From a virus (lineage: Duplodnaviria; Heunggongvirae; Uroviricota; Caudoviricetes), in IMG/VR virus record IMGVR_UViG_2537561979_000009, positions 1 through 41,073 of that record: a stretch of 41,073 bases of DNA, one strand, 5' to 3'. Of the stretch, positions 1 to 6,067 are shown one piece after another (within the stretch, counting starts at the first letter, position 1; each line of letters opens with the position of its first letter). Position numbers and translations under genes: made by a program. The notes beneath the pieces were generated by a model that was given only the letters and a program-made list of their open reading frames with translations, ran no database searches and was not told where the DNA came from.

Positions 1-588
1 CGTTCCACCTGTTTCACCTTTTGGTCCCTGTGGACCTGCCGGACCGCGTTCACCTGTTTCACCTTTTGGTCCCTGTGGACCTGCCGGGCCGCGTGCTCCT
101 GTTTCACCTTTTGGCCCCTGTGGCCCGGTAATGCCTCTTTCACCACGAGCGCCGGTATCCCCTTTCTCTCCTCGTGGTCCCCGGGCAGATGCTGCTCGTT
201 TCCGGGCTTCCTCCGCCTCAGATGCCGCGGACTCTGCTCTGTGCAGTATGGACTGCACCACAGCCTCCAGCTCTGACAACGCCTTCGGATAATAAGGAGC
301 ATCTTCCATCTCCATCAGAAATTTATTCAGTGTTCCCGGTGACGAATCCTCCCTGACCACGATATCTCCCACATACGAAGGACGGTAACCTTCTGTATTG
401 AGTGTCACCCTGTATATTCCTGGCTCCACATCCATACTGTAACTCCCCGTCTCTTCCGGCATGCCATAAGCCACTGTCGTGGCGATGACTGTCTCGCTGG
501 TTCTCTTCGCTTTCAGCTCAATAATGCATCCCGGTACCGGTTTTCCGGTTCCGTCCCTCAGCACGCCTGAAATTTTTACAGCCGCCAT
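1..588 (-). CDS. stf: Side tail fiber protein, N-terminal 196 codons only (ORF continues beyond position 1); collagen-like Gly-X-Y repeats
   Basis: Manual minus-strand translation from ATG at 586-588 gives [18 protein letters not shown]..., resembling the lambda Stf N-terminus, then [16 protein letters not shown] repeats; GGAG Shine-Dalgarno upstream; open to base 1. Confidence 0.75.
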
Positions 589-660
589 ACTCGCTCCATA
601 AAAAATAATCCCGCAAAATTGCGGGCGTCGTCATTCATTTACAATCGGGTGTTTTTATGA

Positions 661-906
661 TTACTTCACGCACGAAACTTTCGTAAACATATCTTCACTC
701 ACCCACTGACCATAAAATCTCGGAGCTGATACTTTATACACAGTGCCGCTTTTCGTTTCTATTTTCCCTGTAAGATCTACCGTATAAGCTCGCTGTAAAA
801 CCCCGGGACTCAGCACACCGGTGCACCGGACTCTCTCCGTAACGGAACTGTACCCCGCGCAACCTGATACAAGAAACAGCAAAAAAGTGCAGACGATTAT
901 TTTCAT
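661..906 (-). CDS. Small lipoprotein, Cor-like (possible superinfection exclusion), 81 aa
   Basis: Signal peptide plus lipobox (LVSGC); GAGGG Shine-Dalgarno 9 nt upstream; sits between the J module and the side tail fiber, where cor lies in phi80/N15/HK022-type phages. Assignment is by position and architecture, not verified homology. Confidence 0.45.
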   Translation of the reverse strand: MKIIVCTFLLFLVSGCAGYSSVTERVRCTGVLSPGVLQRAYTVDLTGKIETKSGTVYKVSAPRFYGQWVSEDMFTKVSCVK

Positions 907-927
907 TACATGCCCTCAACATAACTA

Positions 928-1590
928 TCAGTACGCATCATAAATTTCTGCATTTATGTAATAACAGAGGTTATTAACAACACCTGAATTATCATTGGGC
1001 GCCGCTACGTTATCTTCAGCAAAAGTTGACTGACGCCATAACTGTGAGTTTCTGGCATTAAAACTGGCGGTATACCAGTAATAACTCTCCCCTTCCTGAA
1101 CTGTCGTCCACTGGGTACACCCCGGCATTACGGCCACATCATGTCCCACACTGATCGGTACATCCTTTTCCCATATTCGCGTCATTTTTACTTCCAGTGG
1201 CAGCATTTCCGTGTTCCAGACCACCCTGCCATGACTGTCGCACAACTGTATTCCCCATTGCGGCCATACATTCACCATGTTGGCAAAAACATAAACAACA
1301 TATGTGCTGTCCTGTTCCATGCCCGGCTCCTGCCCTGTACCAGCGCTGAAAATGTCATACTGCCAGGTACCGTTAAGCTGAACCATTTCACCATGGAAGG
1401 ACTGATTACCGCTTATCTGTTTAATAAAAATCACGCAACGATAATTCGTCGGCACCCCGGTGTCGATAAACTGCATCACCGCATCACGCGCACTCAGTGT
1501 GAAATGAAAACGGCGCACAAGGTTCAGTGGCGGCGCAACAGGTGATATCCATTCTCTCCCCCGCTCATCAGTTAATTTAAGTGCAAACAT
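928..1590 (-). CDS. Hypothetical protein, 220 aa, in host-range module downstream of J
   Basis: Long ORF whose start overlaps the stop of the upstream 86-aa ORF; not recognised. Confidence 0.5.
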   Translation of the reverse strand: MFALKLTDERGREWISPVAPPLNLVRRFHFTLSARDAVMQFIDTGVPTNYRCVIFIKQISGNQSFHGEMVQLNGTWQYDIFSAGTGQEPGMEQDSTYVVYVFANMVNVWPQWGIQLCDSHGRVVWNTEMLPLEVKMTRIWEKDVPISVGHDVAVMPGCTQWTTVQEGESYYWYTASFNARNSQLWRQSTFAEDNVAAPNDNSGVVNNLCYYINAEIYDAY

Positions 1591-1850
1591 CAGATCCCCC
1601 TTATCATGACCAGCACGGGTCTTAACCAGCTTGTGTTGGCATAGTGCACTGTCCAGCCGGATACACTGGCACTGGTATGACTTCCCTGACCGTTAATCAG
1701 AATGGCCGGTGAACAGACTTCCAGACGCCAGCCCTGCAAAGGAGTATAAGAACGCTGCCCCGTCCCTTCAGTGATCACATCCAGCACCCCTGTTGGGTTT
1801 ATTTCATGTGTCACAAGGCGCCCTTTGCGCCATACCCGGACTCCGAACAT
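1590..1850 (-). CDS. Hypothetical protein, 86 aa, start overlapping the J stop
   Basis: Start overlaps J stop and its stop overlaps the next ORF start; not recognised. Confidence 0.45.
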   Translation of the reverse strand: MFGVRVWRKGRLVTHEINPTGVLDVITEGTGQRSYTPLQGWRLEVCSPAILINGQGSHTSASVSGWTVHYANTSWLRPVLVMIRGI

Positions 1851-4800
1851 TACAGTCTCCCCAGTCGTACTCTTAACACATTGTTATCGTCATATACGTC
1901 GATTCGCTCGCCATTGAAAAACAGGCGGCCTGCGCCGGGCCTTCCTGAGTTAATTTCAAGGCTGCCGTTTCTTGATAAACGCCACCCCGGACTACCGGAA
2001 TGAAAATTATCTGACCGGATATCTCCCGTCACTCTGGCAAAATCCACGGTCAGTTTTTTCATGAAAACATCATTCATGAACAGCTGATCACCCTGAGCCA
2101 CAAACAAAGGTGTTGTATTGCCATTTTCCGGGTTAATCATCGCAATACGATCTGCCTGCATCAGGATCTGACTCTGAATTCCGTCAGACGTATTTTCGAT
2201 TCCGGCACCAATACCTGCAATATAGAGACGTCCATCCCGTGTCTGCTGCAGCTTCACAGCCCACATGCTGTTCAGGTTCCGGCGCGTGTCCTCCTGAACT
2301 TTCTGTATCTGCTCAATGCTGGCATTCCAGGATCCCAGTTTTTTATCCGTGCTCTGTTTGATCTGACTTCCCTTATCATCAACATACTGTCTGATCTGCG
2401 CTATCTGTCGGCTGTTCTCCTCCGTGCTCCTGCTTACTGTCTGCCGGATTTCGCTTCCCATCCTGTCAACTTTTCTGTCAACTTCCGCAATGGCCATTGA
2501 CTGTTCAGCGCTCTTTTTCGCCACAACAGTACTTATTTGCGCACTTTTATCATCAACATACTGCCTGACCTGCGCTATCTGTCGGCTGTTCTCCTCCGTG
2601 CTCCTGCTCACTGTCTGCCGGATTTCACTGCTCACGCTGTCAACTTTCCTGTCGACTTTCGCAATGGCCAGCGACTGTTCACCGCTCTTTTTCGCCACCA
2701 GTTCCGTTATGCTGTTTTCAGACGCCGTGATTTTTTTCGTCACCCCGGCGATATCACGCTCCGCACGCTGCCTCACATCTTTCTCCAGCTGCGTCATTTC
2801 GCGGTTAATCTCATTCTCCAGTTGCTCAACTTCAGTGCGCCGTGCAGAGGCATCAATGCGTTCATTGATCTCCCGTCCCAGATGCGTTTTATTTATCGCC
2901 CCCCTGAAAAAATTAAGGTAAGCGGCAGGATCATTACTCGGTTGACCGACTGCCTCCACGAATGCCGATTTACCGACAGTGTTAACACTGCGGATATAAA
3001 AGTAATAATCATGACCAGGCTTAATATTCTGGCCGGAGACAAGCCACTGAGTTCCGGTACCAAGATAACGGGCTGTGGTTTCAACCTGCCTGATATCGGT
3101 AATCCGCTTTTCCGAAAACCAGAACTCAAACTGTACCGTCGGATCATAAACGGCAAGATGCGGCGTGGCGGTTATCTGAAAATAGCCCGGCGTCAGCTCA
3201 ATCCGCGACGGCGCTGCCGGTGCGGCAATCCGGAACGATACCGACGCCGGGTCTCCCTGCTGCCCCCGGGCATTTACTGCCCGGACTGTCAGCCTGTAGT
3301 TCCCCGGTGCCAGCTGCCTGAAGCGGTATGTGGTTTCCGTCGTCCGGGCCGTGCTGACCAGCCGCTCACTGCCGTCATCCGCTGCCACGGTCAGGCGAAG
3401 CATGAAACTCACGCCTTTCACCACCTTCGGCGTGTCCCAGCGGGCCAGTACCTGATACTCCCCGCTGTCTGCGGTGACTTCGACAGTCAGGTGCTGCACT
3501 GCTGGCGGCGTGACACCATTCACCGTGCCGCTCTGGTCACCGTCAAAGTGTGCCCCGTTATCCACGATGCCCTCTTTTTCCGGTACATGCTGCACGGCAG
3601 TGATGGCATACGTGCCGTCGTCGTTCTCACGGATACTCACGCAGCGGAACAGGCGCTGGCGCAGCGTCGGCAGCTTCAGCCCCCACACGCTGTACTCGGC
3701 AACGCCGTCAGGAACCCGGCTCACTTTTACCTTCACGCCGTCGGTGACGGACTGAACCTCCACGCTGACCGGATTGCCACTTCCGTCAACCAGACTTATC
3801 AGCGTGGTACCGGAGGATGGCAGCGTGATTTCACGGTCGAGCGTCAGCGTCCGGGTCTGGCTGTTCACCGCCAGCACACGACCACCGGTGCTGATACCGG
3901 CATAGTCATCATCACAGATTTCAATGACATCGCCCGGTACATGGCGAAGCCCTTCAGCACCCACGCTGAAATCCACGGTCTGCGTCTCCAGCAGTTCTGT
4001 TTTAATCAGCCACAGCCCGGCGCGGTGTGCCTGCCCCCGGCTGGTACAGCCAAAGGCATCCATCTTCGTGACGTTACGACCGTAACGGGCAATGGCCTGC
4101 GTGTCCTCCACAAGCTCTGTCGCCGTCTCCTGGCCGTTATCCGGGTCACTCCAGTTCACCTCAACGGCATTATGGCGGTCCTTCAGGGCGCTGAAGCTGT
4201 AGCGGAACGGCGCGCCATCATCCGGCATCACCACATTACTGCGGTTATAGGTCCACACCTTATCCGACGGCCGGTCCTGCACGAACGTCAGCGTCTGCCC
4301 GTTCCATACCGGCATACAGCGCATCGCCGAGCAGAAATCACTGAGCACATCCCACGCCTTGCGCTGTGTGGTCAGCCAGGCATTACAGGTGATGCGCGGC
4401 TCCGTGCCACCAGAGCCGTCCGGCACCGACTGGTCGCAGTACTGGCCGATAACATACAGCGCCCATTTGTCCACATCCGCTGCGCCAACACGTTTCCCCA
4501 TGCCGTAGCGCGGGTGGGTCAGCATATCCCACAGACACCAGGCCGGGTTATCGCTGTATGCCGGTTTAAACGTTCCGTCCCAGATACCGCTGTATTGCCG
4601 CGTCTGCGGGTTATAGTTCGACGGCACCTGCAGAATGCGCCCGCGAAAATGATAATTACGGCTCACCTGCTGGCTGCCGAACTGCTCCGAATCCACCTGC
4701 ACACCGACCAGTGCCGTGTTCGGGTAGCACTGTTTCACATCGATGATTTCGGTGTATGACGACCAGAGCGTTTTGTTCTGCAGCTGGTCTGTGGTGCTGT

Positions 4801-5359
4801 CCGGCGTCATCCTGCGCATCCGGATACTGAACGGGCGCGGAGGCAGGTTACCCACCACCACCGAGGCCAGATACTGCGAGGTGGTTTTGCCCTTAATGGT
4901 GATGTCTTTTTCCGTCACCCAGCCACCGTTACGCTGTATCTGAACCAGCAGGCGGACTTCCGACGGATTCCGGTCCCCCTTTGAGGTGGTTTCCACCAGT
5001 GCCTGCACACCGAAGGTCAGGCGCAGACGGTCGATGTTTGCCGACGTGATGGTCCGGGTAATCGGCGTGTCGTACTTCACTTCCGTACCCAGCACCGTCT
5101 CGGAGCCGGAGGATTCAAATCCCTCCGGCGGCGTCTGCTCCTGCTCACCTGACCGGAACACCACCGTGACGCCGGATATATTGGTATTCCCCTCACTGTC
5201 CAGCACCGGCGTACCGTTCAGCAGCACGCTTTTTAATCCATCCACCGGTCCTTGTATCGGCCCTTCGCTGATGACATCGATCACACTCAGCAACTGCGTG
5301 GACTTCAGGTTGTCCTTCGCTTCGCGCGGGGTATGCCCCTTACTGCTGCCTTTACCCAT
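1850..5359 (-). CDS. J: Tail tip host specificity protein J, 1169 aa, with a non-lambda C-terminal region
   Basis: N-terminus [24 protein letters not shown] and most of the length match lambda J as I recall it; the last ~300 aa diverge and contain an internal duplication. Confidence 0.93.
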
Positions 5360-5419
5360 TCGTCATGCTCCATAAACGACAAAACCGCCCGGAGGCGGTT
5401 TCACATAAAACATTTTGCA

Positions 5420-6067
5420 TCAGCGACCAATCACCACAACCCGGACGCCATCCCCCTCATCCGCTGTGCTGATCTCCTGCGAAATTACCAGTGACCCCAC
5501 GCGCATTTCACCGTACAGAACGGGCAGAGCATTCCCCTGGGCAACCATGTTTTCCAGTGAGGAGAAATAGGTGTTCTGTTTGCCGTTATCCGTGGCTGAT
5601 ACTCCGGGCATTCTGGCTTTCGGTGCCAGCATCTGCGCCACACCACCGAGCACCATACTGGCCCCTGCCGCATACATGCCCGATAAAGCCGCAGCCCCCA
5701 GCCAGCCTGCAGGGTTCCACCATGCCACCGCAATCAGCGCCGCGCCCAGCACTGCCTGAAACACACCACCACGTTTGGCTCCCGCCAGACGCGGCACGAT
5801 GTGGATCACGGCACCATTTGCCAGCGGTTCATTAAGACGGGCTGATAATTCGTTTTCGCCTGTATCACGCCCGGCAATACGCACCTGATACCAGCCGTCG
5901 CTCAGTTTCTGACGAAACGCCGGGAGCTGCGTGGCCAGCGCCCGGATGGCTTCGGCTCCCGTTTTCACACGAAGGTCGATGCGGCGGCCAAATCGTTGCA
6001 AATCCCCGTAAAGGCAGATGCGTGCCATGCCCGGTGACGCCAGAGGGAGTGTGTGCGTCGCTGCCAT
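5420..6067 (-). CDS. I: Tail tip assembly protein I
   Basis: 215-aa ORF in the lambda I position; overlaps K by 103 nt, the same overlap I recall for lambda K/I. Confidence 0.9.
   Translation of the reverse strand: MAATHTLPLASPGMARICLYGDLQRFGRRIDLRVKTGAEAIRALATQLPAFRQKLSDGWYQVRIAGRDTGENELSARLNEPLANGAVIHIVPRLAGAKRGGVFQAVLGAALIAVAWWNPAGWLGAAALSGMYAAGASMVLGGVAQMLAPKARMPGVSATDNGKQNTYFSSLENMVAQGNALPVLYGEMRVGSLVISQEISTADEGDGVRVVVIGR

What the first reader, a model, noticed from the sequence alone, without database searches (positions are those of the whole stretch)
928..5359. Mosaic host-range module: lambda-like J body, divergent C-terminus, then two translationally coupled small ORFs and a Cor-like lipoprotein
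J matches lambda J for most of its length but the C-terminal region lacks the lambda receptor-binding sequence. J stop overlaps the start of an 86-aa ORF, whose stop overlaps a 220-aa ORF, followed 22 nt later by a lipoprotein. This could be a split receptor-binding module; the lipoprotein may be a Cor-type exclusion factor, which would imply an FhuA-type receptor. Both interpretations are inference.
Basis: partly seen in the sequence, partly recalled or inferred. Interest (0 to 1): 0.5.

Follow-up and report, generated by a model that had tools for sequence, protein, structure and literature searches.

The report
Swapped phage receptor-binding cassette with Cor-like lipoprotein
A lambda-like E. 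coli prophage has replaced the built-in receptor-binding end of its tail-tip protein J with a known type of plug-in cassette (two small tail-tip proteins plus a Cor-like exclusion lipoprotein); the layout is ordinary, but this version is a divergent branch whose bacterial receptor is unknown.

Summary
All genes are on the minus strand: J (5359..1850), an 86-aa ORF (1850..1590), a 220-aa ORF (1590..928) and an 81-aa lipoprotein (906..661). The junctions are TAATG, TGATG and a 21-nt gap.

The order J, small protein, about 220-aa protein, Cor lipoprotein, terminator, side tail fibre is the same as in phi80 and N15, and T1 has the same gene set. It is a known host-range cassette, not a frameshifted J.

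- J is 93% identical to lambda J over aa 1-836. At aa 1104 it switches to a 66-aa T1/phi80-type end. A sister prophage with the same J body carries a lambda-like covalent receptor domain and no cassette.
- The lipoprotein is a remote Cor homologue (hhalign 94%).

The cassette is a third clade, 20-26% identical to the FhuA-linked clade (T1/phi80/N15) and to a second clade that includes a BtuB-dependent phage. No sequenced phage isolate carries it. FhuA is therefore possible but not implied.

Verdict: a new member of a known kind, of modest interest.

The parts
1850..5359 (-). J-like central tail fibre / tip attachment protein, 1169 aa (whole gene)
   Evidence: ORF. Pfam Ig_J, FNIII-A_GpJ, Phage-tail_3, Ig_J_second, Phage_Tail_Tip. 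PHROG 31, central tail fiber J.
2852..5359 (-). J aa 1-836: lambda-type body, 93% identical to lambda J
   Evidence: BLASTP. (megablast, 91-94% to many lambdoid J genes). GC about 0.60.
2327..2851 (-). J aa 837-1011: 175-aa insertion absent from lambda J. Charged, repeat-rich and coiled-coil-like by composition; this was not modelled.
   Evidence: gap between the two lambda-matching blocks; a 174-nt tandem repeat, 1.9 copies, at 2373-2698; strain GF60 has an extra 33-nt (11-aa) duplication here.
2051..2326 (-). J aa 1012-1103: tail-tip domain shared with lambda (56%). It ends at the conserved FMNDVFMK motif, which is the recombination joint.
   Evidence: Pfam Phage_Tail_Tip covers aa 1015-1140.
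1850..2050 (-). J aa 1104-1169 plus stop: 66-aa T1/phi80-type terminal segment (...[17 protein letters not shown]) in place of lambda's covalent receptor-binding domain. Proposed docking end for the separately encoded proteins.
   Evidence: NRZ14408 J is 98.6% identical up to aa 1103, then diverges into a lambda-like domain; the same terminal motif is present in phi80, N15, T1, Sp5 and L008 J-type proteins.
1590..1850 (-). ORF86: small soluble beta-sandwich protein of the N15 gp22 / T1 gp32 family. Probably an accessory or adaptor subunit of the tip complex.
928..1590 (-). ORF220: two-domain all-beta protein of the N15 gp23 / T1 gp31 family. Proposed receptor-binding protein.
661..906 (-). 81-aa outer-membrane lipoprotein, a remote Cor-family homologue. 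Proposed superinfection-exclusion factor.
   Evidence: lipobox LVSG|C16. Cys 6/16/28/79 line up with phi80 Cor Cys 7/17/28/76, and a WVS...F...C motif is shared. PHROG 1119 E 8.6e-7 and PHROG 27799 E 1.7e-8; hhalign 94.3%, E 9.6e-8; 18 of its 20 tblastn hits in phage genomes are annotated Cor.
600..625 (-). Intrinsic-terminator-like hairpin (CCCGCAATTTTGCGGG followed by a T-run) closing the cassette
   Evidence: phi80 and N15 have a terminator in the same position.
1..588 (-). 5' part of the next gene, a lambda Stf-like side tail fibre (MAAVKISGV...) with collagen-like repeats. It marks the downstream boundary of the cassette.
   Evidence: start at 588; the same gene in strain B771 is annotated as prophage tail fiber N-terminal domain protein; 45-nt repeat at 1-123.

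Best explanation
This is the host-range end of the tail operon of a lambda-like E. coli prophage. The covalent receptor-binding domain of lambda J, and the lom gene position, have been replaced by a cassette of the T1/phi80/N15 type.

The exchanged unit is about 1.4 kb (window about 2050..661). It comprises the last 66 aa of J, ORF86, ORF220 and the lipoprotein.

Proposed mechanism:
1. The three J chains end in a short T1/phi80-type tip instead of a receptor domain.
2. ORF220, a two-domain beta protein with the fold of the Oekolampad receptor-binding protein, attaches non-covalently to that tip together with ORF86. ORF86 is a one-domain relative of ORF220's N-terminal domain.
3. ORF220 binds an outer-membrane protein of the host. 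This triggers irreversible adsorption and DNA ejection.
4. The lipoprotein is exported, lipidated and placed in the outer membrane of the lysogen or infected cell. There it disables the same receptor from the periplasmic side, as described for Cor, Llp and Rtp45. This excludes phages using that receptor and stops progeny from being lost on cell debris.

Shown here: gene layout, family membership, the mosaic joint, purifying selection, the fold match and the Cor homology.

Inferred: virion location, which subunit contacts the receptor, and the exclusion activity.

Receptor: the two experimentally anchored clades use the TonB-dependent transporters FhuA and BtuB, so a TonB-dependent transporter is the best guess. 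My rough split is FhuA 0.25, BtuB 0.2, another such transporter 0.3, something else 0.25. These figures are judgement, not computation.
For: Layout. phi80 and N15 have the order J-like, about 100 aa, about 225 aa, cor, terminator, tail fibre, with one-base stop/start overlaps. T1 has the same genes, with cor on the opposite strand.

Family membership. PHROG 557, 425 and 1119 match ORF86, ORF220 and the lipoprotein. Clade-level hhalign confirms this for ORF86 and ORF220 and for Cor.

Module swap. NRZ14408 J is 98.6% identical through aa 1103. It then carries a lambda-like covalent domain, and no cassette is annotated before the side tail fibre gene. GC falls from about 0.60 to 0.42-0.53 over the distal part of J and the cassette.

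Real genes. A relative 48-63% identical, sitting in a different, Stx-phage-like prophage backbone, keeps the same ORF lengths and overlaps and shows low dN/dS.

Not membrane proteins. Neither ORF86 nor ORF220 has a signal peptide or transmembrane segment.

Literature on the class. Loci downstream of gpJ determine the terminal receptor and carry matching exclusion lipoproteins (PMC8594841; bioRxiv 10.64898/2026.04.02.716166). The full three-gene cassette occurs in FhuA-dependent phages (PMC13164509).
Against: - Virion incorporation and receptor contact of ORF220 are inferred.
- Sequence identity to any characterised member is only 20-33%.
- One published view treats the two proteins as exclusion-related membrane proteins (PMC13164509).
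- In the Stx phage Sp5, a systematic deletion study found nine essential late genes of previously unknown function, and the text I searched does not mention the homologous pair among them. I could not match that paper's ORF numbering to the genome record, so this point stays open.
- The lipoprotein sits 21 nt after ORF220, and no convincing promoter of its own was found. Expression in the lysogen is therefore unproven.
Confidence: 0.78

Rival explanations
1. One reading: this is an FhuA-directed cassette. ORF220 binds FhuA, and the lipoprotein is a true Cor that blocks FhuA and so excludes T1, phi80 and T5.
For: The three-gene layout is the one found in the FhuA-dependent phages T1, phi80, N15 and HK022, and in 10 of 10 BASEL phages that carry the full cassette (PMC13164509). 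The lipoprotein is slightly closer to clade A Cor proteins (28-33% identity) than to the clade B lipoprotein (24%). Its phage hits are nearly all Cor proteins, mostly from phi80 and other lambdoid coliphages.
Against: ORF86 and ORF220 are about 20% identical to the FhuA clade. By profile comparison they are closer to clade B (E 1.8e-15 against 5.7e-6 for ORF220; ORF86 links only to clade B). Clade B includes the BtuB-dependent phage Bas04. The published receptor-predictive threshold is above 30% identity (bioRxiv 10.64898/2026.04.02.716166), and this cassette falls well below it. Cor/Llp-like lipoproteins also occur in BtuB-dependent phages (PMC13164509).
Confidence: 0.25
2. ORF86, not ORF220, is the receptor-contacting subunit: a trimeric Ig-like cap equivalent to lambda J's C-terminal domain. 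ORF220 would then be an assembly chaperone or secondary cap.
For: PMC12309495 reports that the small protein resembles the lambda J C-terminal Ig-like domain and can be modelled as a trimer on the J tip. ORF86 is a beta-sandwich and is under the strongest purifying selection of the three genes (dN/dS 0.18).
Confidence: 0.1
3. ORF86 and ORF220 are not virion parts. They are accessory factors acting with the lipoprotein in superinfection exclusion, or other prophage-carried genes that benefit the host rather than the virion (morons).
For: [quoted passage not shown] PMC13164509 suggested an exclusion-related role after finding no fold hits.
Against: Neither protein has a signal peptide or hydrophobic segment. 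They are translationally coupled to J within the tail operon. They co-vary with the J terminal segment. ORF220 has the fold of a receptor-binding protein. In phage JenP2 the pair occurs with no lipoprotein gene annotated beside it.
Confidence: 0.08
4. The small ORFs are fragments of a once-continuous J C-terminus broken by frameshifts, that is, a decaying prophage.
For: Stop/start overlaps can look like frameshift junctions. A relative (NRZ14408) has a longer, continuous J.
Against: The longer J continues into a lambda-like domain with no significant BLASTP similarity to ORF86 or ORF220. J ends at the same conserved motif as the J-type proteins of phi80, N15, T1 and Sp5. The same overlaps are present in N15, phi80 and T1. 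ORF lengths are conserved at about 50% divergence with low dN/dS. Each ORF has its own ribosome-binding site.
Confidence: 0.02

Closest known systems
phi80 gp21-gp22-gp23-cor, N15 gp21-24, T1 gp33-gp32-gp31-cor, HK022 (clade A cassette, FhuA-dependent phages)
   Same: Same gene order and sizes: a J without a covalent receptor domain, then about 90-100 aa, about 220-230 aa and a 75-81-aa lipoprotein. phi80 and N15 also share the terminator and following side fibre gene. One-base stop/start overlaps are shared. The PHROG families are the same. The J C-terminal motif (...LRV.hG..) is shared, and the Cor cysteine pattern matches.
   Different: Identity is only 19-26% for the small protein, 20% for the 220-aa protein and 28-33% for the lipoprotein. 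Here the J body is lambda-type (93%) rather than phi80/N15/T1-type (31-35%). J ends at ...GRL, without the TG(V/S)(F/W) tail seen in clade A. The lipoprotein follows after 21 nt rather than about 110 nt. The receptor is unknown.
Clade B cassette: Warwickvirus (vB_EcoS-95; Bas04 FritzSarasin, BtuB-dependent), Nonagvirus JenP2, Stx phage Sp5/VT2-Sakai orf62-orf64
   Same: The closest characterised relatives by profile comparison: ORF220 98.5% probability, E 1.8e-15; ORF86 79%, E 1.6e-5. The nearest true relative of the window cassette (52-63% identity) sits in an Sp5-like short-tailed prophage backbone.
   Different: Identity is 21-26%. In Warwickvirus the genes are convergent with J and the lipoprotein comes first. 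Sp5 has lom in place of a Cor-like gene. JenP2 has no lipoprotein annotated.
Single-chain LptD-binding proteins Rtp44 / Oekolampad RBP (PDB 9rpt) with exclusion lipoprotein Rtp45
   Different: It is one polypeptide rather than two. Identity is 17-19%. Which part of it ORF220 corresponds to is unresolved: one profile alignment gives 53-149 to 156-245 (P 1.5e-4), another gives 1-131 to 1-135 (P 4e-3). In a joint alignment Rtp45 was the least similar lipoprotein.
Lambda J with covalent LamB-binding C-terminal domain, followed by lom
   Same: J aa 1-836 are 93% identical, and the tail-tip domain is 56% identical. The flanking tail genes and side tail fibre are the same.
   Different: The lambda receptor domain (aa 935-1132) and lom are absent. 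A 175-aa repeat-rich segment is inserted after aa 836. Receptor binding is delegated to separate proteins.
T5 pb5 (receptor-binding protein) and Llp (lipoprotein blocking FhuA)
   Same: Works alike: a monomeric receptor binder attached non-covalently to the central fibre, plus a small periplasm-facing lipoprotein that inactivates the receptor (PMC9586334).
   Different: No sequence match was found here: the PDB sequence searches with ORF220 and with the lipoprotein family returned nothing for pb5 or Llp. The genomic location is also different.

Membership tests
T1/phi80/N15-type host-range cassette downstream of J (gp22-like, gp23-like, cor) | Lies immediately downstream of a J-like gene that lacks a covalent C-terminal receptor domain, inside the tail operon | tested here: met
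   compared.
T1/phi80/N15-type host-range cassette downstream of J (gp22-like, gp23-like, cor) | About 220-aa protein homologous to N15 gp23 / T1 gp31 (PHROG 425) | tested here: met
   PHROG 425, E 3.3e-27, full length. hhalign against clade A 85.5% (E 5.7e-6) and against clade B 98.5% (E 1.8e-15). 56 cluster representatives at E<=1e-3 in 1.84 billion proteins.
T1/phi80/N15-type host-range cassette downstream of J (gp22-like, gp23-like, cor) | About 90-100-aa protein homologous to N15 gp22 / T1 gp32 (PHROG 557) | tested here: inconclusive
   PHROG 557, E 2.8e-4. hhalign against clade B 79%, E 1.6e-5, but no link to clade A (E 0.039). The conserved N-terminal motif and the position support it.
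T1/phi80/N15-type host-range cassette downstream of J (gp22-like, gp23-like, cor) | Dependence of the phage on FhuA | not testable with these tools
   Needs plating on receptor mutants. Sequence distance (20-26% to both the FhuA-linked and BtuB-linked clades) gives no prediction.
Cor superinfection-exclusion lipoprotein | Signal peptide with lipobox cysteine; small mature protein of about 60-65 aa | tested here: met
   MKIIVCTFLLFLVSG|C16; the mature part is 66 aa.
Cor superinfection-exclusion lipoprotein | Sequence homology to characterised Cor proteins, including the conserved cysteine pair and C-terminal W-V-...-F-...-C motif | tested here: met
   PHROG 1119, E 8.6e-7. 32% identity to phi80 Cor. 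hhalign 94.3%, E 9.6e-8. Alignment and cysteine positions. 18 of 20 hits in 50,697 phage records are annotated Cor, but at weak E-values of 3e-3 to 6e-2.
Cor superinfection-exclusion lipoprotein | Excludes FhuA-dependent phages when expressed | not testable with these tools
   Needs expression and plating assays.
Lambda-type J with covalent receptor-binding domain | N-terminal hub and fibre domains of J | tested here: met
   Pfam J domains. 93% identity to lambda J over aa 1-836.
Lambda-type J with covalent receptor-binding domain | C-terminal receptor-binding domain of about 200 aa homologous to lambda J 935-1132 | tested here: not met
   No alignment beyond lambda aa 934. The sister J in NRZ14408 does have this domain.
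LptD-type single-chain receptor-binding proteins (Rtp44 / Oekolampad) | Shared fold | tested here: met
LptD-type single-chain receptor-binding proteins (Rtp44 / Oekolampad) | Sequence-family membership (above 30% identity over the full length, the criterion used in bioRxiv 10.64898/2026.04.02.716166) and a single chain of about 310 aa | tested here: not met
   19% identity to Rtp44. No PDB sequence hit. Two chains rather than one.

The most novel reading that the evidence does not exclude
The cassette is a third, uncharacterised specificity clade that targets a receptor not yet known for this protein family, that is, neither FhuA nor BtuB. The receptor could be a transporter absent from K-12, which would explain why no isolated coliphage carries this cassette.

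In addition, ORF86 plus ORF220 may be a naturally split form of the three-module single-chain receptor binder seen in LptD-targeting phages. The three beta-sandwich modules would then cap the three-fold J tip.
Probability: 0.3. Interest if true: 0.55.

Novelty: new member of a known kind. Interest (0 to 1): 0.3.

Why it matters
Cassettes of this type set which outer-membrane protein a phage uses, and which phages a lysogen excludes. They are being used to predict and re-engineer host range.

This allele extends the family to a clade with no cultured representative. It sits on both lambda-like and Stx-phage-like prophages of avian and human E. coli. It also shows a clean natural swap between a covalent receptor domain and a separately encoded one at a defined joint in J, after FMNDVFMK. 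That joint could serve as a practical splice point for engineering.

The fold link between the gp23-like proteins and the solved Oekolampad protein also bears on a disagreement in the recent literature. One paper treats these proteins as receptor binders, another as exclusion-related membrane proteins.

None of this changes the known picture of how such modules work.

Tried and rejected
Searches that gave little or nothing:
- Pfam found nothing for the three small proteins.
- PDB sequence searches found nothing for any of them. A profile that included Rtp45 only recovered Rtp45 itself, not T5 Llp.
- The word-indexed protein search found only 2 clusters for ORF220 and 3 for the lipoprotein. The exhaustive HMMER search and an alignment query were needed to reach further.
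- The YncD-type locus of Bas10 has similar gene sizes (101, 217 and 110 aa) but no detectable homology beyond a short N-terminal motif. It was not used as an anchor.
- No tRNA genes were found in the window.
- The promoter scan gave no convincing promoter for the lipoprotein.

I redid it with database proteins.

Ideas I dropped or could not settle:
- I suspected an extra 174-nt repeat copy in some strains because of a two-piece BLAST hit. It was wrong: the difference in GF60 is a 33-nt duplication.
- I could not map the ORF numbering of the Sp5 deletion study onto orf63 and orf64.


Full report
**1. What is there**

All the genes of the finding lie on the minus strand:
- J, 5359..1850, 1169 aa.
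- An 86-aa ORF, 1850..1590.
- A 220-aa ORF, 1590..928.
- An 81-aa ORF, 906..661.

The junctions, read directly from the sequence:
- J/ORF86 is TAATG, a one-base overlap, preceded by GGGGAG.
- ORF86/ORF220 is TGATG, preceded by AGGGGG.

The 81-aa protein begins MKIIVCTFLLFLVSG|C, a hydrophobic segment followed by a lipobox cysteine. A terminator-like hairpin (625-610, then a T-run) follows it. Next comes the start of a lambda Stf-like side tail fibre at 588, running off the left end of the window. Upstream are lambda-type tail genes.

**2. J is a four-part mosaic**

Against lambda J:
- aa 1-836 are 93% identical.
- aa 837-1011 have no lambda counterpart. This charged, repeat-rich segment contains a 174-nt tandem repeat at 2373-2698. 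I call it coiled-coil-like from composition only.
- aa 1012-1104 are 56% identical to lambda 841-934, the Pfam Phage_Tail_Tip domain.
- Lambda's last roughly 200 residues, the receptor-binding end, are absent.

GC drops from about 0.60 in the J body to 0.42-0.53 over the distal part of J and the cassette.

The decisive comparison is a prophage in E. coli NRZ14408. Its J (1302 aa) is 98.6% identical to the window J through residue 1103. It then continues as a lambda-like covalent C-terminal domain (54% identical to lambda 841-1131), and the next annotated gene is the side tail fibre, with no cassette.

The window J diverges right after the conserved FMNDVFMK motif. It ends 66 residues later with ...[17 protein letters not shown]. 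That is the same kind of terminus as the J-type proteins of phi80, N15, T1, Bas10 and the Stx phage Sp5.

The exchanged unit is therefore J aa 1104-1169 plus the three downstream genes, window about 2050..661.

**3. The three genes are real and are a known cassette**

phi80 (gp21-gp22-gp23-cor) and N15 (gp21-24) have the same order and sizes, the same one-base overlaps, and a terminator followed by a tail fibre gene. T1 (gp33-gp32-gp31-cor) has the same genes, with cor on the opposite strand.

PHROG assigns the window proteins to the same families:
- ORF86 to PHROG 557, E 2.8e-4.
- ORF220 to PHROG 425, E 3.3e-27, full length.
- The lipoprotein to PHROG 1119 'Cor', E 8.6e-7, and to PHROG 27799, E 1.7e-8.

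[quoted passage not shown] Neither ORF86 nor ORF220 has a signal peptide or a hydrophobic segment.

The closest relative of ORF220 (P0002, 52-53% identical) lies in a different backbone. That backbone matches the late region of the short-tailed Stx phage Sp5/VT2-Sakai: a 541-aa protein, a 421-aa Phage_Tail_Tip protein, then the cassette, then a run of genes ending in a roughly 2800-aa protein.

In that relative the three ORFs have exactly the same lengths (86/220/81 codons) and the same overlapping junctions. Synonymous sites are near or at saturation while amino-acid change is restrained:

| Gene | dN/dS or dN |
|---|---|
| ORF86 | dN/dS 0.18 |
| Lipoprotein | dN/dS 0.39 |
| ORF220 | dN 0.43, dS saturated |

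The 1.9-kb distal segment itself is 99-100% identical in 10 of 5426 complete E. coli genomes. Frameshift debris and assembly error are excluded.

**4. ORF220 has the fold of a proven receptor-binding protein**

An AlphaFold2 model built on 30 family members is confident (pLDDT 88, pTM 0.86). It shows two beta domains of about eight strands each.
- Foldseek against the PDB gave one meaningful hit, 9rpt_C: probability 1.0, TM 0.50, E 1.3e-2. 9rpt_C is the receptor-binding protein of phage Oekolampad, solved bound to LptDE.

Two recent papers disagree about these proteins. PMC13164509 found no fold hits and guessed an exclusion-related membrane role. PMC12309495 modelled the 'hand-like' roughly 220-aa protein as a monomer capping the J trimer and contacting FhuA or BamA. 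The fold match found here favours the second view.

**5. ORF86**

Profile comparison links the gp22-like family to the N-terminal domain of the gp23-like family (P 4e-5 over 80 columns). It links the two halves of gp23-like proteins more weakly (P 4e-4).

By eye, a motif of the form (Y/F/W)G-h-x-h-x-(D/N)-x-x-G starts ORF86. It appears in ORF220 at residue 1 and again near residue 112. It recurs at about residues 1, 113 and 207 of Rtp44 and at similar positions in the Oekolampad protein (sequences).

ORF86 plus ORF220 total 306 aa, against 311-321 aa for the single-chain LptD binders. This suggests that the pair is a split (1+2) version of a three-module binder. But the correspondence is not settled. 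One profile alignment places ORF220 on the last two modules (P 1.5e-4). A clade A profile aligns to the first (P 4e-3). I report this as a hypothesis.

**6. The lipoprotein is Cor-like**

- It is 32% identical to phi80 Cor.
- Its cysteines (6/16/28/79) line up with those of phi80 Cor (7/17/28/76), and both share a C-terminal WVS...F...C motif.
- hhalign of the window-type pair against phi80, N15 and T1 Cor gives 94.3% probability, E 9.6e-8.
- Among 50,697 phage records it has 20 tblastn hits, 18 of them annotated Cor. E-values are weak, 3e-3 to 6e-2.
- RefSeq annotation omits this gene in strains B771 and GF60.

**7. Which receptor?**

Pairwise identities and profile comparisons define three co-varying clades of the cassette.

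| Clade | Members | Receptor evidence |
|---|---|---|
| A | T1, phi80, N15 | FhuA |
| B | vB_EcoS-95, JenP2, Sp5 orf63/orf64 | Bas04, whose gp22-like protein groups here, is BtuB-dependent (Maffei 2021, supplementary file 5) |
| C | The window and its Stx-phage-like relative | None |

Clade C is 19-26% identical to both A and B. By profile it is nearer B for ORF220 (E 1.8e-15 against 5.7e-6) and for ORF86 (E 1.6e-5 against no link). Its lipoprotein is slightly nearer clade A Cor (28-33% against 24%).

The published predictive threshold is above 30% identity (bioRxiv 10.64898/2026.04.02.716166). No record in the phage collection exceeds about 30% identity to ORF220.

So 'Cor-like, therefore FhuA' does not follow. 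A TonB-dependent transporter is the best guess by analogy with the two anchored clades. Its identity needs experiment.

**8. Verdict**

It is wrong to infer FhuA.

The arrangement has been known since the Rtp/T1 genome comparison (Wietzorrek 2006, as cited in PMC13164509) and was systematised by Maffei 2021 (PMC8594841). This is a new, divergent member of a known kind.

The modest points of interest are:
- a specificity clade with no cultured representative;
- the clean natural swap between a covalent and a separately encoded receptor domain at a defined joint in J;
- the fold link to the solved Oekolampad protein.

Noticed in passing
window 661-906 (-) and 1815-1850 (-); L001 7573-7913; L014 5243-5583: RefSeq (PGAP) annotation of identical prophages in strains B771 and GF60 leaves the 81-aa Cor-like lipoprotein gene uncalled. 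It also starts the small ORF at an internal GTG (74 aa). The 12 residues dropped are conserved in the roughly 50% diverged relative and match the family N-terminus, so the 86-aa start overlapping the J stop is the likely true start.
   Followed up: yes
L011 (VT2-Sakai/Sp5) 4717-5618: Sp5 orf63 and orf64 are gp22/gp23-like and 47-61% identical to those of Nonagvirus JenP2 and Warwickvirus vB_EcoS-95. Bas04, a Warwickvirus whose small protein groups with this clade, is BtuB-dependent, whereas short-tailed Stx phages are reported to use BamA. orf63 also seems annotated too short: an upstream TTG adds 17 residues that carry the conserved N-terminal motif.
   Followed up: partly
L015 142-4050 (E. 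coli NRZ14408): This prophage J is 98.6% identical to the window J through aa 1103, including the inserted repeat-rich segment. It ends in a lambda-like covalent receptor domain (54% identical to lambda) and has no cassette. It is a natural 'fused versus separate' pair.
   Followed up: yes
window 2373-2698; L014 3313-3390: The inserted J segment carries a 174-nt (58-aa) tandem repeat, 1.9 copies at 90% match. In strain GF60 the same segment has an additional 33-nt (11-aa, QLENAINREMT) duplication. The fibre shaft length is therefore polymorphic between strains.
   Followed up: partly
window 1-123: A 45-nt tandem repeat (2.7 copies, 93% match) lies in the side tail fibre gene on the minus strand. 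Collagen-like Gly-X-Y repeats are expected there, because homologous fibres in related loci carry Pfam Collagen domains.
   Followed up: no
L007-L010, just downstream of the cassette (e.g. L008 7217-7357): In the Stx-phage-like relatives the cassette is followed by a hok/gef-family toxin gene. In L007 an IS (transposase, rve) interrupts the region upstream of the Phage_Tail_Tip gene.
   Followed up: no
window about 600-3000: GC content falls from about 0.60 in the J body to 0.42-0.53 across the distal part of J and the cassette. This is consistent with acquisition of the distal part from a lower-GC source.
   Followed up: partly
L016 20098-21472 (Bas10 IsaakIselin, YncD-dependent): The YncD-type locus has a similar size pattern (101, 217 and 110 aa, convergent with J). 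Its first protein begins with a similar motif (MPGLQAWDASGN...), but no homology to the window cassette was detectable beyond that.
   Followed up: partly
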